DNA of 55,309 nt, filler included, from Basidioascus undulatus (GCA_000826855.1; 5 parts of 5 records of this genome joined end to end with filler, not necessarily neighbours in it), one strand, 5' to 3'; counted from the whole stretch's first letter, positions 10,990 to 53,605 are shown. A program made the numbers and translations. Notes: a model not told the origin generated them from the sequence alone.

Positions 10990-11089
10990 NNNNNNNNNNN
11001 NNNNNNNNNNNNNNNNNNNNNNNNNNNNNNNNNTTAATTAATTAANNNNNNNNNNNNNNNNNNNNNNNNNNNNNNNNNNNNNNNNNNNN
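10990..11089. other. Artificial contig linker (N44-TTAATTAATTAA-N44)
   Basis: Six-frame-stop spacer at 11034-11045 within Ns. Confidence 0.97.
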
Positions 11090-39162: not shown

Positions 39163-41026
39163 ATGCGCACCAACCTCGCTACCTTCTCGGTGGTCTCCCT
39201 CTCGGCATCCGCCATCGCAGCGCCTCTCCTCAGCGTCGCCGGGGCAGCCGTCGCTGGAAGCGCCCTCACCGCCCGTCAGGCCAAGCAGAAGCCCCAGCCC
39301 ATTAACATAAAAAATGCAGTGGACGTACGTGAAAAATTAGAGCCTCTAGCCAAATACACGCTCGGCCCAGCTGATCCCGGCTCCTTACCCCTCCCCAAAG
39401 ACGAATTTGAACTTCATGCTCTCCGAGTTCGAGCACGAGAACTTTGGGCACTTCGGGCATGGCAAGAAGAACAAGCGCCAGATCAAGCAGAAGCCCCAGC
39501 CCGTCAACATCAAGAACGATATTGATGTTCGTGGCCCTCACCTCTGGAAATTACTCCATTCTGGCAACTGGCAATCGCGACTGACACTCTTCACTCGTAT
39601 TCTCCGGTCCTATTTCAGACGAACCTCCAATTTAATCTCTCTGAGTTCGAGCACGAGAGACTCGGGCACCGCGGCCACAAGCGCGGCAAGCGTGCGGTCA
39701 CGAAGGCGCCGAAGAAGACGCCGACGGCGGTCAAGGGTGGCTCGGACTCGGAGTCCGACTTCAAGCCGATCAATATTCTCAATCGCGTGCAGGAGGACGC
39801 TTTCATCACCCTCTCCGAATTCGAGAACGACCACCTCGAGGACAAGAAGAAGGTCAAGAAGTACCGCCGCTCGCTGGACGCTCGCCAGGCCAAGCAGAAG
39901 CCGCAAGAGATCAACATCAAGAATGCCGTCGACGTACGCGTCTACTTTCATCTACTATTCTGTAGATGTAGGCTAGCTGACTCCCGCCCCTGATCCCGCC
40001 GGCAGACCAACGTCGACTTCGTCCTCTCCGAGTTCGAGCACGAAAACTTCTCTCATTTCGGCCATGGCAAGAAGACCAAGCGTGATTCTGCCACAGACAA
40101 GCCTGTGGTGATACATAATCTCGTTGATGCCGACATGGACTTCACCCTTTCTGACTTCAACAACTACCAACACGGCTTCAAATCCGCCAAACCCAAGAAG
40201 CCCAAGCGCGACCTCAAGAAGCCGCAGCCACTGAACATCAAGAACAGCGTCGACGTGAGCCGCCCATTTTCACATTCCCATCTCTTCTGAACACTGGCTG
40301 ACAACTGCTGTGCATCTTGAAGACAAACCTCCAATTCACCATGTCCGAGTTCGAGCACGAAAGTATCAAGCACGGCAAGAGCAAGCGCTCCCTCGCTGCC
40401 CGCCAGTCCAAGGAGAAGAAGAACACGCCAATTAATTTGAAAAACCAAGTGGATGTAGGTGGCCGTGACGTTCATCTCATATTCTCCCAGAGCAGCTGCT
40501 CAGTAACAGCCGAATGCACAGGTGGACGCCTTCATCACTCTCTCCGAATTCGAGCACGACTCTATCAAGCACGGCCGAAAGGTTAAGAAGTCGAAGCGTG
40601 ACTACTCGTCTGACGACGAGTCGGAGGAGGAAGTCGAGGTTATTGAGATTGAGCAGGGGCACGAGTGCCACCACGAGTAAGCTTCTTGCACCTGATTTAC
40701 TTAGACTAACTCATCAAAGCTAATTCTTTACCCCAAATAGGTGCCAGAAAAAGCCTGAGTACCAGCCTAAGTGTGAGGAGGAGAAGTGCCACCACGAGTA
40801 CAAGCCAGTGCACGAGTACAACCCTGTCCACGAGTACAAGCCCAAGTACGAGGAGAAGAAGGAAGAGAAGAAGGTGTACGAGGTGAAGGAGGAGGAGTAG
40901 GTCCAGCTCTCTTTCTCAACGCTTAGCCATCCGCTGATCACACCACCATGCAGCTGCAAGGAGGAGAAGCCCAAGATCCACGTCGAGGAGTACAAGCCTT
41001 GCGAGCACGAGTGCAAGGAGTACTAG
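39163..41026 (+). CDS. Secreted Kex2-processed repeat protein B (~455 aa): signal peptide, seven KR/RR-delimited modules, short EYKP/Cys/His tail
   Basis: Exons 39163-39324, 39401-39526, 39619-39933, 40006-40254, 40323-40454, 40522-40676, 40741-40896, 40954-41026 splice in frame to TAG; module consensus P(I/V/L)NIKNxVD-TNLxFxLSEFEHE...K(K/S/T/N)KR. Confidence 0.88.
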
Positions 41027-41842
41027 ATTTTGTACGTCTTCCTCAGTCTTTCGCCATTTGAATGACTATGGCTGAAGCGTCCAGCAGCAGGTCGACTGTT
41101 TTGTTTCTGTGATTTTGCATCCTTTTTCACTCTTGGACTCTTTTCCGTTGTTTAGGAAATCTGCGCTGCCGTCTTTGTATCAGTCTTCGCTTTACCATCT
41201 GCTGTTGGTCCCAGTCTCATCGCATCTAATGTGGCTCTATGAACCCCATGGCTTTCCAATTGCCTGCTCTGTCTTAAGAGGACATTATGGCAAGATGATA
41301 CCGGCATATCCATTGAGCTTTGGAGTCTGTAATCTTTCGAAGGGTTTCAATTGGTCTTTTTCCCATCATGGCATCGGCTTCCCTGCCCCATCAGGCGGTT
41401 GTCGAGCGACAGGCACCGTCTACCATCGGTGAGCCGAGTCCGTGTCGCGACCTGCAGTATGTCTGTCAGAGTGGCATTATACTTACAAGCGACATCCTGT
41501 TGTCACGACTGCCGATCCACCGTGCAATTGAATAAGTGCTCGACTGAGATCAAGACAGCCCATCAGGGCCAAACAGAATACTACAAAAACCAAATGGAAC
41601 TGTGACAATGGTGCGGGGTACCGTCAAAAGTCAGACAGACCAGGGGGGCTCGAGTCCGTATCGTGTGGGCTGAGATCTTTGCATATCTTCGACCGCTGTG
41701 GTAGCAGAAAAAAAAAATCGGTCTCTCAAACGGACATTCCGCAAACGCCTAAGCACAAGGCGGATGTCGAAGACTGGAAGCTTTCAGGAAAAGCCAGCTG
41801 ACGGCGGTCATTTTACCCGACTTACGGACCCACGCAGACCGC

Positions 41843-42539
41843 GTGCATCTTGCCTTTCGACCACCATCATCCGCTCGCAACGACGAGGACCTGTACATCG
41901 AAGACCACATCTTGATTCCCGCTATACACGGCTTCCTTAATGCTCTTTTCGATCTCTTGTGGGACGGTGCTCCGAAGCTCAGGCACTTGGCGCAGCCCTC
42001 GTGGAAGACCACGGCGTGCCATATTGGTTCATCCCTTCATCGCCACTGCCTCCGCCCGCTGTCGAACAGCTCCTCGACATACGGAATCTATCTCGTCTGG
42101 ACTTGCCCGCGCCTGGCCTCGGTTGGTACGGAGACTATTACCAGCGTTACATGGGCGGCGTTAAGGAGTTCATTCACAAGGCACCGTCGTTGGAGAAGCT
42201 CATCTTAGTTTTCTCTCTGAAATATGGAAGCGCTGGCACAGGCGGTCTCGAGGGGCATAGCGGAGTACCACAAGCTCTTCGCGCAGCACATACCTGAGCC
42301 GCACAAAGTCAAGATCGTCACGGTCTGGGTTGAGCATGACTGGGATTGGCTCCAATATGGAGTTGCAGACGGTACGCTCTGGGAGCTGGGGGATGCTTGA
42401 GAAAGGCTCGCTTGTACGCGGTCGCTATGCCTTGTTCCTTCGCGTTGTGCCATTCACCTCGACCTGTTTCGAACTTGCTGTGCAACGAGTGACCCAGACC
42501 ACGGAAGCTGGTTTATCTCCTCAGTTCCGGTGGTGGTAA
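41843..42539 (+). pseudogene. Fragmented LRR-like (F-box family-type) relic
   Basis: LFDLLWDGAPKLRHL and FIHKAPSLEKLIL in different frames; no intact CDS found. Confidence 0.3.
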
Positions 42540-42865
42540 GTTGCCTCTCAATCTTCCTATGGCGGTGAAAGCACGTTCGCCGGAGTAGTCCATCAACGAA
42601 CCATGGCCAACTTGGCTGCTATGCCCTACGATAACTGCTTGCTGAATGATAAGGAAATTTTTCTTTTAACCATTCTTGGGCAGTCATCCTGGAGCCTGTC
42701 GAGTGCTGAGTGTTTCAAGTCGCACGACGCTGCAACAGGCGCTCGAACTTCCGCGGCCCGCACGCGGTTGACACGCGACGGAACGCGAGCTGTGGGAAGC
42801 AAGCAAGGGGGCTGTCTCTGTACCGTCTCCTGGCCGCTCCTACTCCCAGAATTTATGCGCTGGCA

Positions 42866-44240
42866 ATGCGGGCGGACGACGTTATCGACCGCCTGCTGTC
42901 GTCGACGTCCGTGCCGTCGCGGGCCACCGCGGGCGTCGTGCTCGCTGTGCTGCTCCTTGTCCTCCGCTGGAGGGCCATCATCGTCCTGGCGCTCGCTGCG
43001 TGCGTATGCATGCTGCTGACCTGTACACTCTAAGGCTACCCGACTGACTGAAGGAACGTTATTGCAGATTCCTCGCTACTTCCACTACATTCGCCGACCT
43101 CGTAAAGACCTTCTTGGACGACGTGCGTGTTGATCCACCGTCCACCTTGCCCCGCCAGCGCTGCAACTGACGCTATTCTGGACAGTCGCCATCTTCCGCT
43201 GAGAAGCCACCCCTATCTTCCTCTCAACTCACCTCCGAACCGGTCGTCAACAAATCCCAACCCAGCCCCTCGCACCCCTACGCCGACCCACCTCCTTCGG
43301 CGCTCGACAAGCTCGCAGTCCCGGAGCAGCTCCAGGAACCGCTAGACACGCTTCTCTCCCTAGTCATCCGCGACTTTGTCGAGTGGTGGTACGTACATGT
43401 GCTCATCTTATCAGGCCGAGAGAAGAAAGCTGAGCGTGACGGACTGCCGGGCATGCAGGTACATCCCCATCTCGCTCGTCCCGCATGACCCTGCCTTCCC
43501 ACGCGAGGCGAGGCGCAGCCTCAACTACTTTGCGAGCAACATCTGCAAGCGGATAGACGAGAGCAAGAACGGCGTAGATGTCGTGCGTTCATCTGCTTGC
43601 TCTCGAATCAGAAGTAGCCGGACGCTCAAGGCTCACTCCGCAGGCGGTCTTCCTCTTCTGCTCGACCTCCCAAACCCTCCTACGTGCCTTGCGTTCCCAC
43701 CGCTCTCCCTCCTCCCCCACCCTTGCGTCCCATCTCCCTGAACCCACCTTTCCCACTTCATCGCCGTTCCACCCTCTCCTTCGCTCGACCGCGGCGCACC
43801 TGCTCGCGCTGTCCTCGGCCCCGCGCGACGCAGACAACACGATGCTGCAGGCGCTCCTGACGGAGCTGCTGGCCGTGCAGGTCGAGAGCACCGTCAAGGT
43901 GTTTACGCCCGACTGGGTGAATCGCACCGTTGTGGGCTGGTTCGAGGGCGAAAAAGGGAAGGAGGAGAGGGTCCGGGAAGAGGCGGTCAAGATGAGGGAG
44001 AAGGTCGAGGAGGTTGTGGGGAAGCAGAAGATGGAGGAGGCGGAGAGGGAGGCAAAGAAGGTCGCTGCGGAGGAACTGCCGGAGGAGAAGAAGGCGGTGA
44101 TCCCCGAGGCGCCTCTTCGCGAGAGCCCAGCGCCGCCCACGCCGCCTTCCAAACCCGACCCCCCGACTTCTGCCACCTCCACGCGCACTTCCACCTCCTG
44201 CGCACCTTCCTCCCCCACATGGTCGCGCGCAACGCCGGGC
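42866..44240 (+). CDS. Membrane-anchored PXA-domain protein (Mdm1/Nvj3/SNX13-14-like); 3'-truncated
   Basis: N-terminal TM segment, then PEQLQEPLDTLLSLVIRDFVEWW|YIPIS...DPAFPREAR, ...FHPLL..., LQALLTELLAVQV...VFTPDWVNRTVV, typical of PXA. Confidence 0.75.
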
Positions 44241-44340
44241 NNNNNNNNNNNNNNNNNNNNNNNNNNNNNNNNNNNNNNNNNNNNTTAATTAATTAANNNN
44301 NNNNNNNNNNNNNNNNNNNNNNNNNNNNNNNNNNNNNNNN
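44241..44340. other. Artificial contig linker
   Basis: TTAATTAATTAA at 44285-44296 within Ns. Confidence 0.97.
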
Positions 44341-45700: not shown

Positions 45701-48700
45701 ATGGACAGGTCCGATTCGCCTTGCCCATGTGCACGCTCAACCCCCCGCTCACCCCCCTGTCGCACCCGCAGCCTCGATCTCAACATCCGCCAGCTCATCC
45801 TCAGCGACCTAGCGCGCAACATCGCCGAGTCGCCCGAGGACGATCTCAGCCCCTCGGACCGCGACGCGCTCCTCTCGCGCACTTCGAACCTCGGCCAGCA
45901 GAAGGCCGGCGCCAACCTCAACGGCGCTGTCCCCGAGCCGCTCACGATCGTCCGTTGCTCTCTTCTCAAGGCGTAGTCCGAGAAGGAAGGAGAACTGATG
46001 GGAGCACGAGACAGTCGACCTCCCGCGCGCAGTGCGACATTGCGTTCGCGGAATACGCGGCTGCGGCGGCGACGCGTGATGCGGAGTCGACGTCGAGGCA
46101 GCTCCTCGGGCTGCTGCGTGAACTGCCGGACGTGGAGATTGAGACGGACCTGCGCTGGACCAGCAAGTCACGCTCTCAACCTATCGGCTCTTCATACGTC
46201 GTACTGACGCGTGATGGGCACTCCACAGCCTGGGCGCTCCCCGACCAGGTCGCTTTCGCCGCCGTCACCGCGCTCCTTCAGATCGCCGCTGCCAACCCGG
46301 AGGCCCGCCGAGGTATAATCGATGGGCTGGTGGAGTTCACCGCTGCGCTCGCCAAGCACCTCGAGGGCGAGAGCGGTGCGTCTATCCCCATGTCCGCTTC
46401 CTGACCCTTCATCTCACTTCCCTCCCTTCAGGCCCGCACGTCGTGACGCACATCGTGCCCGCCTTCCACGGGCTCTACCGCGCCATAACCGAGACACCCT
46501 TCCCGTGGACCGTCTCCGAGTGGTCGGCCTACATGCAGCGGACCAAGACGCTGTTCGCCTTCCCGCTCGTCGCGCGCCTCAACGACGTCCTCCTCCTCGG
46601 CGCCTCATCCTCCGCACCGGACGAAGACGCGTCCTCGTACGCGCACGCACTCCTCGCGCGGTACCGCGCGAACGGCCGCCCGCTCTCGGGCAACTTCGTC
46701 ATCTGCGGCGTGATCGAGACGCAGTGGGTCGTCCTCGCGCAGGCGATCGCAGACGCGCCCGAGGCGCTCCAGCCACGCGCGCCGCTCCCTCCCCCCAGCC
46801 CGGCAGCAGGGGAGGTCAGCGAGGCGGCCGACGCGGCGTGGGATGCGCTTACGACGCGCGAGGCCAAGCCACTCGAGCACGCTGAGGGCGCAGTTAGGGA
46901 CGATCTCGCCGCGGCGCTCAAGTCCGCGGTGCAGTGCTATGACGACCTGCTTGGTCTGCTCGACAAGCTAAACGGCGAGCCGCCGTCAGACATCTACTCG
47001 TTCGAGATCATGTCTGAGAGCTTGGTGCGTCGCTTTAGCGAGCGGGTGCGAGGAGGATATGGGCGCAAGCTGATGAAGGCAGAATAGAAACTGGCAACGC
47101 TGTGCACGACCGCACTGCGCTCGCTCGACTCGGGACTGCTCTCCCGCCTCAAGCTTCTCCTCAGTGAGAGCACGCCTGTCACCGAGGCCTTAGTCCAAGA
47201 GACGGCGCTGCAGGTCATGTCCATCCTCGCGATCAAGTGCGTTCTTCCCATTGCACCGTTTCAATCTCCTGCACTCAAATTCCGGACGGCAGACGCTGAC
47301 TTTGAGGGTATGTCCTGCGCAGCTTCCCGTTGATCGCTATGCCCATGACTGCCCACCTCCGCCGCTTCGTCACTGCCCCACTCGACATCTTCGAAGCCGA
47401 AGTGACCGACGCGTCCGGCACGCCGGTGCTCAGCGCCGCAGCGCATTGTCTGGCAACGTGCATCAAGGTAAGCTTCTCACTCTCCTCCTACCTGTGTCCC
47501 ATCTCATCCAATCCTGGCCCTCTTTTGCCCCCCGCAGATCGCCCCCGGCGAGGACCTCATCATGTCGACGATGTACTCCCTGCTCAACTACCTCTCCGCC
47601 CCCTCGCGCGATGCCTCGGGCGCGGCGAGCATCCGGACCGTCCCCGCCGGGCTCAACTACGACCAGCAGACGGTCGGGATGCATACGCGCTCGCTCGACC
47701 AGAAGAAGCGCATCAGCATGAGCACCATCGCGGTTGTCACGAAGCTCGCACTGGACTTCAACCGCCCGGAGGTCCGTCTTTCCTGCTGTCACTTCCAAGC
47801 TCAATGGGCAGCGCGACTGACGGCTCGCTGGGTGTCGTCTGGTGGGCCAGATCACAAACCTCACGATCTCGATGCTCCTCCAGCGGCTGCAGGGCGCGGA
47901 CCCTATCGCCGAAGCCGCGATCCTCTCCAACCTCGTCGACCTCGCGCTCATCGCCGACGTCCCCGCGTTCATGGACGTCGTCAAGGCGTTCTCGGAGATC
48001 AGCATGAGCGCGAACCCGGAGGACCCGACCGTCTCGAGCAACGCTGTGCGTCAAGATCCTTTGTAGTTTCCGCACGGCAAGGTAGCTTATTTCGATGCGT
48101 GACAACGGCCTACAGGTCATCACCGCCCAGACGCGTCTCGCTCGGAACCTCGGCTCGCGCACCGACTGCTGCGACGTCTACCTGCACGAGCTGCTCACAC
48201 TCTTCGCGGAGAAGGGCATGCAAGTCCAGATCGTCTCCGCGCAGTGCAAGGACCAGGACCGGGTGCGTACTTCGACCTTTTCGGGCCTCCGCATCGAGCA
48301 CCCTTCTGACCTTCTGGCTTAACTCCCCTCCCGACAGGCCTCGGACCTGACCGGCAACGTCGCCGCTCTCCTGCTTGCGATCGACGCGCTGCTCGCGCAC
48401 CCAAACTTCAACCCGCACGCCGCGCCCTCGCCCGACCTCGTCTCGCTCTTCCGCAACATGTGGTTCCTCTGCGTCCTCTTCGGGTTCACGCCCCAGAGCC
48501 CGACGAGCGAGACGCCCGAGTGGCAGCGCGCGAGCCTCGCGCGCATCACGCTCAAGACGCCCGCGCTCGTGCTCGAGGGCGCGCAGAACACGCTCGACAG
48601 CGACCTCGAGTACAATTCGATATTGAGACGCGACTTCTCCGCTGGCGTGCGTTGCTCCCCCCAGACTGTGTTTCCACCCTGGGCGCCTGACTAACCTCAG

Positions 48701-51700
48701 GTGAGGGCCTTAAACAGGCTCTCGCGCACCAACGCAGCGTCCTCACATCGTTCATCCCCAAGCACGCGCACGAGATCCGCTCGTTCACGCTAGCCCAGGT
48801 CACGTTTCTCCTTACGATCTACCACGTCGAGCGCATGCGCAGCGAGCTCGGCAAGCCGTCCATGATTCTCTGGTACTTTGTCAACGAGGCGATCAACAGC
48901 AGCCCGCTCATCTCGTGCATGGAGACCATCGCAGACCAGGTTCGTCCCGCTTCACGCTTCACCATTCCATTCCAATATTTGGGTCGCAGGAACTGACAGC
49001 GAATGGTGCAACGTGCACGTGCTAGGTCTCGGACGTCTACATCGCGACGCTGTCCAAGCAGGCGGTCGAGCAGAGCGTCGACCCGAACGTGGCGGAGGAG
49101 GTCAAGCGCCTACTCGTCGGGAGCTGCCACCGCCTCGCCAAGGTCCGGGACGTCTCGTTCAAATACGCAAACCGGCTCGTCACGACCTTTCCCGCGTTCA
49201 TGTGCGAGCCCACGCTTGTCGTCGCCCTACTCGAGGCGATCACGCTGCTCCGCCGGGCGTGTGACGGCGAGGTCCTGGATGAGGTGAGTCTTTGTTCTGC
49301 TTGACTTTTGTTGTCTTGCAACAATTATGGATGAGTGACTGCGGACGCCCATGCAGTACTCGCCCGTTTTCGAATTCCACTCCGAGAAGGCGCAGATCAC
49401 GCTCGAGCTCACGGACTCGTACGCCGTCCGCAACGAGATCCTCACTCGCCTGCACCAAGCCGCGCGCGAGTGGCTGGGGCTGGGCCTCACGCATGCGCCA
49501 GTCGAGGTGCAAGGCATCCTGGAGGTGCGTCACGACTGCGATGTTCCGCCTACGCATGACGCTGTTTGACAGTGTTCCCCTCTCCTTCGCAGACATACCT
49601 CGACAGCTCGGACGAAGCGTTCCTACCCGGCTCGGTCGAGATGGGCGCGAGCATCGCTCTCGACTTTGCTTCCAGCCTGCCCCGCTTGGATCGCAAGAGC
49701 GGTACGTTGTTTAGTTGGAGCGTCTGGACGCTCGCATCAAACGCTCACACCCGGCTCTGCAGCGTCCCTCCCGCCTGCGGGCGGCTGGAAGGCCGACGCC
49801 TCCGCCATTTTCGCCAACCGCTTCTCGTTGCGCAGCCGCGCCAACGGCGAGATTATCGGTGTGCGGCTGGCGCTCAACCGCGGCAAGGATACACCAGTCT
49901 CACTGCATTCGAGTGTGCTCACTGATAATGGACACCCACAGGACTGCACGAGATGCACAAGGTCCCGGACAACGACATCCCGCGGGAGGACGTGTCGAAG
50001 ATCAAGGAGCAGATGGCGGACGTCCTACGCCAGATTCGCGGCAAGACCGGCCACCTCACCATGTCCGACCTGCAGCGTCTCCTCTGGCGTTGCGCTGGCG
50101 TGCTCGTAGCTTCGAACTCCGTGCGTTGGGATGTGGCGCCCATGAGCTGGGCGGGATTGATGCTGACATCAAAGCGGACAGCCCGACCACGACCTCCTTC
50201 ACCACCTCGTCTCGGTGCCGTTCCGCGTCTTCACCCCGCTCGCCATGTCGTGCGGCCGCGATGCGTGGACGTGGCTCATCGGCGAGCGGCCGGACCTGGA
50301 GGCCAAGCTCATGGTCGAGATCACGTCCGAGTGGCTCACGAGCATCCGCTGTCGGCGTGGCATGTTCTCGGGCAACGTCGCGTGCGTCTGCAGCTTTCAA
50401 TTCCTACTCCGAAGCGACGCTGTAAACAAACCCTTCCTCCGCGCCGCAGGTACAAGAACCCCTTCAACGACAGCATCGAGTACTCGCCGACCAACAAGGA
50501 CATCATGGACCAGAACCTCTCGACGGCCAAGCGCGTCCTCGGCCCGCATAAGCTTCTTATCCAGATGCTCTCGAGCCGCTTCCAGGCTATCCGCTACAGC
50601 GAGGACGCGATGGTCATCTCCCTCACGCGTCTCCTGTTCAACTCTGCACGCGCGCACAAGCTCATGAGGCAAGCTAGAAAGCGGCTCACTCTCGAAACCG
50701 CCATCACTGACGCCTGCGCACTTCACGCAGCACGCATCCGCTCGCGCGCGAGGTCCGCTTCTCGCTGCTGCTGCTCGGCTTCCAGGTCCTGCAGAACACG
50801 CGCACGGAGGGCACGATGGAGCTCCGCCTTCGGCAGGCGCTGTACGACGCGGCGTTCTCATGGTTCTCTGTCCGACCTCAGTGCGTAGTCGCATGAGGGC
50901 TCAGCCATTCCTGCTCGCTTTCCTTACCGAATTTTGTGCAGATGGTCGTACGGCAGCGACCGCACGCAAGTCGAGGCCGACATCCGCCTCCTGCAGGACT
51001 TCCTTGGCGCCCTTCGCGGCGACACGCTGCGTACGAGCCGCTTCGTCACGAGCTTCCCGGACTTGCGGCCGCGCTACGCTTTGCCAGGTCCGTCCCACTT
51101 TACCGGTGTTTGTATCCCGCCAGAGCTCACGATTCGCGCTCAGGTGCGACGTTCGAGGACGTCGTCGCCCAATACAAGGAGCGCCGCAAACTCCTCGACC
51201 TCCTCGTCGAGAACGAGATCCACCACCTCAGCGTCTGGACCAACCCGCTCAGTGATCCCCGCCGCGGCGCCGACGCCGTCAGCCTCATGGAGAAGGGCAC
51301 CACCGACGTTAGTCGACTACCTTGATCCTGTAGTCTCGCCCCCGCTAAGCCTGTTTCTCATCTAGGACTCGTGGATCCGCCACGTTCGCACTGCCTGGTT
51401 GGTGCAGCCTGCCGTCGCAGTGCACATGGCCGAGCGTTTCAAGGTCGCGAGTGTGCGATCCGAGGTCACCAAACTCGTCCGCCAACGCCCGAATGATGCG
51501 ATCGACATCCCCGAAGCCCTCGAGTTCCTCATCGGCGAGCAGCTTGATCCTAGCGTCAAGAAGAGTTTGAAGGTACGCCTTGCGATATCCGGCTTTAGTT
51601 TCTTTTCTCTGATTTCCGTTTATGGCAGTCCTTGCTCTTCTGGGCGCCCGTACCGCCAGTTTCGGCGATCAACTACTTCCACCCGCGCTACCGCAACGAC

Positions 51701-53605
51701 CCGCTCATCCTGCAATACGCGATGCGCGTCCTCGAGCAGCACCCGGTCGACCTGACTTTCTTCTACGTCCCGCAAATCGTCCAGGCTCTCCGTCACGACG
51801 GTCTCGGTCCGTGTCTCTCTGAAGCCTGGTCCTTTGCGAAATTCTGACAGCATGTTCAGGTTACGTCGAGCGCTTCATCTTCGAGACAGCCAAGATCTCG
51901 CAGCTGTTCTGCCACCAGATCATCTGGAATATGAAGGCCAACACCTACAAGGACGACAACGCCGAAGTCGTAGGTCACTGGCATGGTCACGGTTTGCTGC
52001 TCTTGCGGAGTTTGACACAGGAATGCCCGGATCGCGTAGCCCGACCCGATGAAGCCGCTGCTCGACCGTATGATCGACATGATCGTCGCGGCTCTGTCAG
52101 GAGAGGCGCAGGAGTTCTACGATCGCGAGTTCGGCTTCTTCGACGCGGTGACGTCGATCTCCGGCAAGCTCAAGCCGTACGTGAAAAAGTCGAAGCCGGA
52201 GAAGAAGGTATGTTCTTCGGGCTACGTCCGGGACTAGAGATCGTCGGACTCACGGGTAATGGTAATTTATAGGCCAAAATCGACGAGGAGATGGCCAAGA
52301 TCGAGGTCAAGGTCGGCGTTTACCTCCCTAGTAACCCGGACGGTGTCGTCGTCGACATCGACAAGAAGTCCGGCCGTCCTCTGCAGAGTCACGCGAAGGT
52401 CAGCCTATATAGGCCCGGGGCCGAACCGCATACTCACTCCTTACCCATTACATTTTCAGGCGCCGTTCATGGCTACTTTCCAAGTCCGCAAGGAGAAGAC
52501 AGACGTCGCCGGTCAAGGCGACGACTCGCTCGAGGCCGACGAGAAGCGCGACAAGCACACATACGAGGTCTGGCAGGCCGCGATCTTCAAGGTCGGCGAC
52601 GACTGCCGGCAGGACGTCCTCGCTTTACAGGCCATCGCCATGTTCAAGAACATCTTCACGAGCGTCGGACTCGTTCTCTACCTCAACCCTTATCGCGTCA
52701 CGGCGACTGGACCCGGGGTACGGTTAATTTCGCTGTCTTTCTTTGAAGCGTCCGCGCCGCTCACGCTTTGTAACGCAGTGCGGCGTCATCGATGTGGTTC
52801 CGAACGCGACGTCTCGCGACGAGATGGGCCGTGCCAAGATCAACGACCTCTTCGCCTTCTTCGTCCGCAGCTTCGGACACCCCGACAGCATCAAGTTCCA
52901 GCACGCTCGGCTCAACTTTATCCAGTCGATGGCTGCGTACTCGCTCGTCTGCTACATCCTGCAGGTCAAGGACCGCCACAACGGCAACATCATGATTGAC
53001 GGCGAGGGGCACATTGTGCACATCGGTTCGTCCTTTCGATGAAGCGCTGCGTGATTTACTCACTGACACAACGCAATTATCAGACTTCGGGTTCCTCTTT
53101 GATATTGATGAGTATCTCTTTAATCTCCCGAGTTGGCAAACGAAGCTGATTTTTCGTCTTGCCTATCTCCACGTCCCGGAGTAAGCATCTTCCTCTTACT
53201 TTCAATATTTCCATGATTATTCGCTGACCTCGCGCGGTCTGGTAGGGCGTCAAATTCGAGCCGAACTCGTTCAAGCTCAGCCACGAGATGGTCGTCGTCA
53301 TGGGTGGTCGCGACAGTCCTGGCTACCGCATGTTCGTCGAGCTCTGCGTCAAGGGCTTCCTCGCGATCCGCATGTACGCGGACCAGATCGTGGACGCAGT
53401 TCACCTCATGCTCGGCACCGACTTGCCGTCGTTCAAGGGCGAGGGCACGATCCACCGCCTGCGCGAGCGCTTCCAACTGCAGCTCAGCGATCGTGCCGCG
53501 GCCCAGTACATGGTCGGCATCGTGCGGAACGCGCACGAGAACACGCGCTCGGTCGCGTACGACGAGTTCCAGCGCCTCACGAACGGTATTCCGTACGCTG
53601 TGTAG
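45701..53605 (+). CDS. STT4: Phosphatidylinositol 4-kinase type III alpha (Stt4), highly intron-rich
   Basis: LFRNMWF, STHPLAREVRF, QYAMRVLEQHPVDLTFFYVPQIVQALRHD, QLFCHQIIWNMKAN, SGRPLQSHAK|APFMATF, AIFKVGDDCRQDVLALQ, LQVKDRHNGNIMID, HIDFGFLFDI, YDEFQRLTNGIPY. Confidence 0.96.

What the first reader, a model, noticed from the sequence alone, without database searches (positions are those of the whole stretch)
39163..41026. Hidden polyprotein of seven Kex2-releasable amphipathic peptides (repellent/amyloid-like candidate)
Seen: the ORF track fragments this gene, but splicing 8 exons gives a signal peptide plus seven modules, each ending in KR/RR. (1) QAKQKPQPINIKNAVDTNLNFMLSEFEHENFGHFGHGKKNKR; (2) QIKQKPQPVNIKNDIDTNLQFNLSEFEHERLGHRGHKRGKR; (3) ...FKPINILNRVQEDAFITLSEFENDHLEDKKKVKKYRR; (4) ...QKPQEINIKNAVDTNVDFVLSEFEHENFSHFGHGKKTKR; (5) DSATDKPVVIHNLVDADMDFTLSDFNNYQHGFKSAKPKKPKR; (6) DLKKPQPLNIKNSVDTNLQFTMSEFEHESIKHGKSKR; (7) ...NTPINLKNQVDVDAFITLSEFEHDSIKHGRKVKKSKR. 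The core alternates I-x-I-x-N-x-V-x-T-x-L-x-F-x-L. Known: signal peptide plus dibasic-separated repeats defines fungal Kex2-processed repeat proteins, e.g. Ustilago maydis Rep1, whose peptides form amyloid-like surface coats. Inference: this is a family I do not recognise, yielding self-assembling beta-sheet peptides with His/Lys-rich tails for a spore or hyphal surface coat.
Basis: partly seen in the sequence, partly recalled or inferred. Interest (0 to 1): 0.88.

Follow-up and report, generated by a model that had tools for sequence, protein, structure and literature searches.

The report
Secreted seven-peptide precursor gene, orphan fungal family
An intron-rich fungal gene encodes a secreted protein built from seven related 37-59-residue units, each ending in a protease cutting site; this is the already known "Kex2-processed repeat protein" design, here in a family with no detectable relatives and an untested function.

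Summary
Joining eight exons at 39163-41026 (+) gives a 455-residue protein: signal peptide, short pro-piece, seven related modules each ending in KR or RR, and a 101-residue acidic Cys/His/Tyr-rich tail.

The gene looks real:
- Third codon positions are 82% G+C, against 51% in the introns.
- Module pairs are saturated at silent sites but conserved as protein, with dN/dS of 0.05-0.2 among M1, M2, M4 and M6.
- The joined modules match the two intron-free ones.

[quoted passage not shown] I file it as a new member of a known kind.

New here:
- A paralogue about 4 kb upstream on the same contig has the same signal peptide and pro-piece. It carries one module and then a tail of about 490 residues of KPEYKP-type repeats.
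- The window is five separate contigs glued by N linkers. The real context is only 33261-44240.

No relatives were found in Pfam, 1.84 billion protein representatives, PDB sequences or metagenome contigs. Cleavage, splicing in vivo and the amyloid or coat idea remain untested. The two fold predictions were of low confidence.

The parts
39163..41026 (+). Whole gene ('KEP7'): 8 exons (39163-39324, 39401-39526, 39619-39933, 40006-40254, 40323-40454, 40522-40676, 40741-40896, 40954-41026), 455 aa plus stop
   Evidence: Spliced model is open and in frame. GC3 is 0.82 and GC2 0.30, against intron GC of 0.51.
39163..39219 (+). Predicted signal peptide, residues 1-19, ending S-A-I-A
   Evidence: 19-residue hydropathy maximum is 1.83 in the first 30 residues, against 0.54 at most later on. 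It aligns with the paralogue's N-terminus. Heuristic only; SignalP was not available.
39220..39276 (+). Pro-piece, residues 20-38, ending L-T-A-R before the first Gln of module 1 (an LxxR-type site)
   Evidence: The LxxR extended Kex2 motif is from passages of PMC8528282.
39277..39478 (+). Module 1 (residues 39-80, spans intron 1), ends KR
39479..39693 (+). Module 2 (residues 81-121, spans intron 2), ends KR-G-KR
39694..39870 (+). Module 3 (residues 122-180, no intron, long N-terminal extension), ends RR
39871..40083 (+). Module 4 (residues 181-227, spans intron 3). It starts with the spacer S-L-D-A-R and ends KR.
40084..40209 (+). Module 5 (residues 228-269, no intron, most divergent), ends KR
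40210..40388 (+). Module 6 (residues 270-306, spans intron 4), ends KR
40389..40599 (+). Module 7 (residues 307-354, spans intron 5). It starts with the spacer S-L-A-A-R and ends KR. It is the module closest to the paralogue's.
   Evidence: blastp of M7 against the paralogue's module gives E = 7e-17.
40600..41023 (+). C-terminal tail (residues 355-455, spans introns 6 and 7): acidic D/E/S stretch, then 7 Cys, 9 His and EYKP-type repeats. Net charge is -17, with no Arg.
38988..39092 (+). 32-bp tandem repeat, 3.3 copies, ending 70 nt upstream of the ATG (promoter or 5' leader)
   Evidence: 3 matches in the window, 0 in 100 shuffles.
33316..35271 (+). Paralogous gene: exons 33316-33507, 33568-33818 and 33885-35135, plus a proposed last exon 35205-35271. 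It encodes 586 aa, or 565 aa if the last intron is not used. Layout: signal peptide, pro-piece ending S-L-A-A-R, one module ending KR, an acidic stretch, then about 490 aa rich in K, E, P, Y and Cys (KPEYKP-type repeats).
   Evidence: Profile hit at 47 bits. Gene model. blastp N-terminus 1-82 against 1-92 gives E = 1e-15. The intron inside the module is at the same place. The tail is predicted disordered, pLDDT 45.
33261..44240 (.). The one contig (10,980 bp) that holds both genes. It is bounded by 100-bp linkers of N44-TTAATTAATTAA-N44.

Best explanation
This is a real, intron-rich fungal gene for a secreted polyprotein of the Kex2-processed repeat protein (KEP) type.

Proposed path (inferred, not shown):
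1. The signal peptide is removed after residue 19.
2. In the late Golgi a kexin cuts after each KR or RR. It probably also cuts after the three L-x-A-R sites that precede a Gln.
3. A Kex1-type carboxypeptidase trims the basic ends.
4. The cell exports seven related 35-57-residue peptides plus a 101-residue acidic Cys/His/Tyr-rich fragment. The peptides are cationic and His-rich, and four of them could start with pyroglutamate.

Each peptide carries a conserved 15-residue stretch of strictly alternating apolar and polar residues, followed by S-E-F-E-H and a His/Lys tail.

My best guess for their role is action at the fungus's own cell surface, by binding the wall or by strand-to-strand association. 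A soluble antimicrobial or signalling role is almost as likely.

The gene belongs to a two-gene family on one contig. The sister gene keeps one module in front of a long disordered KPEYKP-rich tail. The module therefore probably began as an N-terminal pro-piece or partner of that tail and was later multiplied sevenfold.
For: Gene is real:
- The open spliced frame has canonical splice signals.
- GC3 is 0.82 against intron GC of 0.51.
- Silent sites between modules are near saturation (pS 0.44-0.75) while the protein is kept. dN/dS is 0.05 for M1/M4, 0.09 for M1/M6, 0.17 for M1/M2 and 0.34 for M7 against the paralogue's module.
- Introns at the shared module position are no more alike than shuffled ones, 0.58 against 0.52, and TRF sees no DNA-level repeat across the modules. 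The copies are therefore old and selected as peptides.

Secretion:
- There is one N-terminal hydrophobic stretch and none later.
- The N-terminus is homologous to the paralogue's typical signal peptide.

Cleavage design:
- 7 of 7 modules end in [KR]R. There are 8 such sites against 3.0 expected (P = 0.004).
- Arg is scarce (17 R against 65 K). 12 of the 16 Arg after the signal peptide lie in [KR]R or L-x-A-R sites, and the 101-residue tail has none.
- Leu at P4 with a variable P2 fits the extended Kex2 motif (passages of PMC8528282).

Fit to the class:
- The protein fits the KEP criteria of PMC6339444 section 24 and PMC7329392 section 13.
- Repeat sizes of 25-50 aa and above 51 aa are known KEP size classes (PMC6339444 section 6).
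- Pyro-Gln KEP peptides were found by mass spectrometry in Coprinopsis (passages of PMC9769878).

The Rep1 layout (10 peptides of 34-53 aa plus a larger protein) is similar (PMC3133707 introduction).

No folded domain is predicted for the uncut chain, as expected for a peptide precursor.
Against: - There is no transcript evidence for any junction.
- No homologue from another species was found, so conservation can only be judged between internal copies and one paralogue.
- KR sites lie in Lys-rich stretches, where some would arise by chance.
- Asp at P3 in S-L-D-A-R is reported as unfavourable for Kex2.
- The paralogue has a single module before a tail of about 490 residues, which fits a pro-piece better than a multi-copy bioactive peptide.
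- The modules are very hydrophilic (GRAVY -0.9 to -1.6), and only 4 of 7 cores beat shuffles for beta-amphipathicity at P < 0.05.
- The signal peptide was not checked with a trained predictor.
- The organism is not identified, and only about 11 kb of true context exists.
Confidence: 0.6

Rival explanations
1. Uncut repetitive secreted or wall protein. The chain stays whole, the KR dipeptides are only part of Lys-rich linkers, and the protein acts as a disordered, charged, Tyr/Lys-rich matrix or adhesive component. Its functional core would be the KPEYKP-type tail.
For: The paralogue is mostly tail: K 114, E 137, P 69 and Y 56 of 586 residues. Both the tail and the module stretch are predicted disordered. 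Thirteen KK pairs show a generally Lys-rich make-up.
Against: The Arg at each module end is invariant although Arg is otherwise rare. There are 8 [KR]R sites against 3.0 expected, and the tail has no Arg. Accessible KR sites in a disordered secretory protein are the usual kexin substrate (established knowledge).
Confidence: 0.2
2. The released peptides assemble into amyloid-like amphipathic beta-sheet fibrils that coat hyphae or spores, as Rep1 repellents do in Ustilago maydis.
For: The layout matches Rep1: signal peptide, peptides of 37-59 aa against 34-53 aa, and a larger C-terminal product. A 15-residue alternating core lies at the same place in 7 of 7 modules and in the paralogue, with an invariant Asn on the apolar face. 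GC3 of 0.82 suits a highly expressed gene (inference).
Against: No sequence relation to any library protein was found. The peptides are hydrophilic and cationic. AlphaFold2 predicted no strands, though at low confidence. TANGO and Waltz were not available.
Confidence: 0.15
3. Precursor of a modified cyclic peptide (dikaritin or ustiloxin-type RiPP).
For: These precursors share the signal peptide plus KR-separated repeat design.
Against: No DUF3328/UstYa, tyrosinase or methyltransferase hit was found. The scan covered 13 ORFs of 140 aa or more on the contig (within the 75) and 38 ORFs of 70 aa or more in 35.2-38.7 and 41.1-43.7 kb (within the 62). The modules are 37-59 aa with no short aromatic core repeated exactly. 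The contig covers only 5.9 kb upstream and 3.2 kb downstream, so a cluster partner further away is not excluded.
Confidence: 0.04
4. Not a working gene: a decaying repeat or a chance open frame.
For: There is no transcript evidence and there are no homologues.
Against: dN/dS is 0.05-0.2 between old copies. GC3 is 0.82. Seven clean introns restore the frame. A paralogue has the same gene structure.
Confidence: 0.03

Closest known systems
Kex2-processed repeat proteins (KEPs) as defined by Le Marquer et al. 2019 (PMC6339444) and Umemura 2020 (PMC7329392)
   Same: It has a signal peptide, at least 3 tandem related units separated by KR/RR, units of 8-100 aa, and repeats covering 69% of the protein. 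It has no later hydrophobic segment. Orphan ('stand-alone') types are common in this class.
   Different: The class is operational, not a homologous family. Here the units are long (37-59 aa), 5 of 7 are split by an intron at the same point, and they are followed by a Cys/His/Tyr-rich acidic tail. A sister gene with a single unit shares that tail.
Ustilago maydis Rep1 repellent precursor
   Same: Both have a signal peptide, an array of Kex2-bounded peptides of similar size (34-53 aa in Rep1) and one larger C-terminal product (PMC3133707 introduction).
   Different: No detectable sequence similarity: the profile search returned no protein at all. The peptides here are hydrophilic, cationic and His-rich. 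Amyloid formation and a surface role are untested.
Kex2-processed pro-domain (K2PP) secreted proteins (Outram et al. 2021, PMC8528282)
   Same: The paralogue at 33316-35271 has a signal peptide, a short N-terminal piece ending in KR or LxxR, and then a large mature part.
   Different: K2PP proteins are folded effectors of plant pathogens. Here the mature part is a disordered KPEYKP-rich repeat, and the pro-piece is itself the unit multiplied in the neighbouring gene.
Ustiloxin/dikaritin RiPP precursors
   Same: They share the signal peptide and KR-separated repeats.
   Different: Their core repeats are much shorter, and a DUF3328/UstYa gene usually lies nearby. None was found on this contig.

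Membership tests
KEP (Kex2-processed repeat protein, operational class) | N-terminal signal peptide for the ER | tested here: met
   Hydropathy peak of 1.83 in the first 30 residues only, an S-A-I-A site, and homology to the paralogue's N-terminus. Heuristic only; SignalP was not run.
KEP (Kex2-processed repeat protein, operational class) | At least 3 related tandem units bounded by KR, RR or KK | tested here: met
   7 of 7 modules end in KR or RR.
KEP (Kex2-processed repeat protein, operational class) | Units of at least 8 aa and at most 100 aa (Umemura). Repeats cover at least 15% of the protein (Le Marquer). | tested here: met
   Units are 37-59 aa. The repeat region is 316 of 455 residues, or 69%. 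Criteria were read.
KEP (Kex2-processed repeat protein, operational class) | No transmembrane segment | tested here: met
   Maximum 19-residue hydropathy after residue 30 is 0.54. TMHMM was not run.
KEP (Kex2-processed repeat protein, operational class) | Actual cleavage by a kexin and release of the peptides | not testable with these tools
   Needs peptidomics or a kex2 mutant.
Rep1-type repellents (Ustilago) | Sequence homology to Rep1 | tested here: not met
   The module profile found 0 proteins at E <= 0.001 among 1.84 billion representatives. At that scale the same profile recovers even the single-module paralogue, at E = 2e-7. I did not confirm that Rep1 itself is in the library.
Rep1-type repellents (Ustilago) | Signal peptide plus an array of Kex2-bounded peptides of about 34-53 aa and a larger C-terminal product | tested here: met
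Rep1-type repellents (Ustilago) | Peptides form amphipathic amyloid fibrils on aerial hyphae | not testable with these tools
   Only a sequence pattern is available. The fold models are of low confidence.
Dikaritin/ustiloxin RiPP precursors | DUF3328 (UstYa) gene close by | tested here: not met
   No such Pfam hit on the contig 33261-44240. Only about 11 kb is available, so the test is weak.
Dikaritin/ustiloxin RiPP precursors | Short, near-identical core peptides | tested here: not met
   Modules are 37-59 aa and 42-63% identical as permuted units.
Alpha-factor-type pheromone precursors | Repeats of 9-24 aa, often with Ste13 (X-A / X-P) spacers after KR | tested here: not met
   Units are 37-59 aa. 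The residues after KR/RR are Q-I, A-V, S-L, D-S, D-L, S-L and D-Y, with no X-A/X-P runs.
Any Pfam family | Match above the curated cut-off | tested here: not met
   Four exon translations gave 0 families at or above the cut-off. The best was E = 0.077 at 13.8 bits, against a cut-off of 27. The paralogue's tail ORF gave 0 families.

The most novel reading that the evidence does not exclude
The module is a new self-associating unit: a 15-residue alternating strand with a conserved Asn, followed by an acidic/His clasp. Once released sevenfold from this gene, it would assemble on the cell surface together with the acidic, Tyr/Lys/Pro-rich tail proteins of the same two-gene family. That would be a second repellent-like surface coat, evolved independently of Rep1 and hydrophobins, in which basic peptides and an acidic disordered scaffold come from one precursor design.
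Probability: 0.1. Interest if true: 0.7.

Novelty: new member of a known kind. Interest (0 to 1): 0.38.

Why it matters
KEPs are widespread, but very few have a known product or role. A member with long, strongly selected peptides and a sister gene that shows where the unit came from is a tractable case for two questions. How do multi-copy peptide precursors arise, here apparently by multiplying an N-terminal pro-piece? And do fungi other than smuts use Kex2-released peptides as surface material? As it stands it is one more orphan KEP, with no evidence on expression or function.

Tried and rejected
- Whole genome: none is held for this window, so further paralogues, hydrophobins, kexin genes and longer context could not be checked.
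- RNA evidence: no RNA holder was listed for 39000-41300.
- Word-indexed protein search: exon 3 against longer proteins gave none of 147 candidates. The paralogue's tail gave none of 7999 scored candidates.
- Exhaustive profile search: 0 hits.
- Metagenome contigs: the first alignment was too variable to scan. With a narrower alignment, 54 pattern matches were found and none was confirmed by tblastn.
- PDB sequences: one non-significant match (E = 0.4) to the pro-domain of prohormone convertase 1 for the module profile, and none for the tail. I treat the match as chance on the basic stretch.
- Complex prediction: four copies of module 3 gave no verdict, score 0.01 against a mark of 0.32.
- AlphaFold2 on exon 4 with a 2-row alignment gave pLDDT 57 and no strands. 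On the paralogue's tail it gave pLDDT 45 and one helix. Both are too weak to use as structure.
- Literature word searches: module motifs matched 0 papers. Tail motifs matched 8 unrelated papers.
- Supplements: the motifs were absent from the supplements of PMC7329392 and PMC6339444. The first holds accessions, not sequences, so that blank says little.
- Earlier findings of this scan: nothing by place or sequence, and only unrelated prokaryotic repeat peptides by words.
- Taxon: the PI4-kinase gene on another contig is nearest to Basidiomycota, 60-68% identical in the kinase piece and about 41-49% overall.
- An exhaustive splice-site search script timed out and an off-by-one start gave nothing. 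Both were replaced by explicit coordinates.

Full report
**1. What is in the sequence**

The region 39163-41026 (+) reads as fragments in the six frames. Joining eight exons gives an open 1368-nt frame of 455 codons.
- The exons are 39163-39324, 39401-39526, 39619-39933, 40006-40254, 40323-40454, 40522-40676, 40741-40896 and 40954-41026.
- The seven introns are 57-92 nt. All are GT..AG with donors typical of fungi (GTACGT, GTTCGT, GTACGC, GTGAGC, GTAGGT, GTAAGC, GTAGGT).
- All have a CTRAY-like branch motif 15-37 nt before the acceptor. One of them is GTAAC.
- If retained, 5 of 7 shift the frame. 4 of 7 carry an in-frame stop, including both introns whose length is a multiple of three.

**2. 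Is it a real coding gene?** Three internal lines of evidence say yes.
- Composition by codon position is G+C 0.55, 0.30 and 0.82, while the introns are 0.51. The intron borders therefore coincide with a sharp change in composition.
- The modules are old copies held by selection. Pairwise silent-site differences are 0.44-0.75, which is near saturation. Replacement differences are small among M1, M2, M4 and M6: dN/dS is 0.05 for M1/M4, 0.09 for M1/M6 and 0.17 for M1/M2. Other pairs range up to about 1, for example 1.12 for M3/M4.
- Tandem Repeats Finder sees no DNA-level repeat across the modules. The five introns that sit at the same module position are no more alike than shuffled ones, 0.58 against 0.52.
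- Five modules are interrupted by a phase-0 intron at the same point. Once spliced they have the same layout as the two uninterrupted modules, M3 and M5.

No transcript evidence could be obtained.

**3. Anatomy of the protein**
- Residues 1-19 are a hydrophobic N-terminus ending S-A-I-A. No other hydrophobic segment follows: the maximum 19-residue hydropathy later on is 0.54.
- Residues 20-38 form an Ala/Gly-rich pro-piece ending L-T-A-R.
- Seven modules of 37-59 residues follow, then a 101-residue tail.
- Each module has four parts: a basic K/Q/P-rich start; a 15-residue stretch in which apolar and polar residues alternate strictly, with an invariant Asn on the apolar side; a near-invariant L/M-S-E/D-F-E/N motif; and a His/Lys-rich end closing in KR or RR.
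- Modules 4 and 7 begin with the five-residue spacers S-L-D-A-R and S-L-A-A-R, each followed by Gln.
- The modules are hydrophilic (GRAVY -0.9 to -1.6) and net +1 to +6.
- The tail is net -17, with 7 Cys, 9 His, EYKP-type repeats and no Arg.

**4. The cutting sites are more than chance**
- The protein has 65 Lys but only 17 Arg.
- Of the 16 Arg after the signal peptide, 9 lie in the eight [KR]R sites and 3 in the L-x-A-R sites.
- Shuffling the repeat region gives 3.0 [KR]R sites on average, against 8 observed (P = 0.004).
- Leu at P4 with a non-basic P2 fits the extended LxxR Kex2 motif. Asp at P3, as in S-L-D-A-R, is reported as unfavourable (passages of PMC8528282).
- Four products would start with Gln. 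Pyroglutamate-capped KEP peptides were detected in Coprinopsis (passages of PMC9769878).

**5. A paralogue changes the picture**
- A profile of the seven units, scanned over all 1906 six-frame ORFs of the window, finds the gene's own exons and one further module at 33217-33861.
- That module belongs to a second gene: 33316-33507, 33568-33818 and 33885-35135, with a likely last exon at 35205-35271.
- Its layout is: a homologous signal peptide and pro-piece ending S-L-A-A-R; one module with the intron at the same point, ending KR; an acidic stretch; and about 490 residues rich in Lys, Glu, Pro, Tyr and Cys (KPEYKP-type repeats).
- The N-termini of the two proteins align at E = 1e-15. Module 7 aligns with the single module at E = 7e-17.
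- The tails share the acidic stretch, the Cys/His block and a K/E-rich segment with Val-Tyr. This last point is my reading; blastp on the tails alone is weak (E = 0.006 to 0.08).
- AlphaFold2 predicts the long tail to be disordered apart from one helix (pLDDT 45).
- The unit "module plus acidic Tyr/Lys/Pro-rich tail" is therefore the family's ground plan. The gene in question multiplied the module and kept a short tail.

**6. True context**
- The window contains four 100-bp linkers, each N44-TTAATTAATTAA-N44. The five pieces measure 10989, 10988, 10983, 10980 and 10969 bp.
- The steadily falling lengths indicate five size-sorted contigs of a fragmented assembly, not one locus.
- Only 33261-44240 is real context. 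It holds the paralogue, an unassigned stretch, a two-HMG-box gene on the minus strand (37286-37960), the gene in question, and the start of a PXA-domain gene (43171-44240).
- No DUF3328/UstYa, tyrosinase or methyltransferase hit lies on this contig. With 5.9 kb upstream and 3.2 kb downstream this is a weak test.
- A PI4-kinase gene on another contig is closest to Basidiomycota, at only about 41-49% overall identity. I do not name a taxon.

**7. Relatives elsewhere: none found**
- Pfam gave nothing at or above cut-off. The word-indexed protein search gave nothing.
- The exhaustive profile search of 1.84 billion representatives found 0 proteins at E <= 0.001.
- A control shows that, at that database size and with default filters, the profile still recovers all six module-bearing frames of the window. 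This includes the single-module paralogue at E = 2e-7.
- PDB sequences gave one non-significant match. The metagenome scan gave 54 pattern matches, none confirmed.
- The window's own proteins were not found either, so this genome is probably not in the collections, and close relatives may be missing too.

**8. What it most likely is**
- The protein meets the published working criteria for Kex2-processed repeat proteins. Its unit size falls in known size classes.
- The class is large and mostly orphan: 7878 KEPs, of which 2560 are stand-alone (abstract of PMC7329392).
- The nearest functional analogue by layout is Rep1 of Ustilago maydis. Rep1 has 12 repeats and is cut into 10 peptides of 34-53 aa plus a 229-aa protein; the peptides form amyloid fibrils on aerial hyphae (PMC3133707 introduction).
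- The resemblance is of design only. No sequence relation was detected, the peptides here are hydrophilic and cationic, and nothing I could run supports self-assembly.
- I therefore commit to a secreted, kexin-cut polyprotein giving seven cationic His-rich peptides and an acidic tail fragment (confidence 0.6).
- A cell-surface role is my leading guess. The amyloid-coat reading is a minority sub-case at 0.15.
- The main rival is an uncut disordered wall or matrix protein (0.2).

**9. Verdict**
- It is a new member of a known kind.
- Interest is moderate to low as it stands. The paralogue, which suggests that a pro-piece was multiplied into a peptide array, raises it somewhat.

Noticed in passing
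window 10990-11089, 22078-22177, 33161-33260, 44241-44340: Four 100-bp linkers (N44, TTAATTAATTAA, N44) split the window into pieces of 10989, 10988, 10983, 10980 and 10969 bp. The window is five size-sorted contigs glued together, so genes on different pieces are not neighbours.
   Followed up: yes
window 38988-39092: A 32-bp unit is repeated 3.3 times, 91% matching, and ends 70 nt upstream of the start codon. It occurs nowhere else in the window. It may be a promoter element or part of the 5' leader.
   Followed up: partly
window 37286-37960 (-): A gene with two HMG-box hits (E = 3e-8 and 2e-7) lies between the two paralogues on the opposite strand.
   Followed up: no
window 22178-33160: This whole contig has lower G+C (0.47-0.48 over most of its length, against 0.51-0.65 elsewhere) and almost no long open frames or Pfam hits. 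It may be non-coding or degenerate repeat DNA, or from a different genome compartment.
   Followed up: no
window 45773-53596 (+): A PI4-kinase (STT4-type) gene with about 20 short introns lies here. Its best matches among those listed are Basidiomycota, at only about 41-49% overall identity.
   Followed up: partly
window 42205-42450 (-): A small Cys-rich open frame has weak, non-significant Pfam matches (E = 0.006-0.009) to Dickkopf and spider-toxin cystine motifs. It is probably chance.
   Followed up: no
window 43171-44240 (+): A PXA-domain gene starts here and is cut off by the end of the contig.
   Followed up: no
window 35136-35271: The paralogue may end at a stop at 35137-35139. Alternatively it may splice (GTGAGT at 35136, acceptor at 35204) to a short last exon ending Cys-Tyr, which mirrors the last exon of the gene in question. 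This is undecided without RNA.
   Followed up: partly
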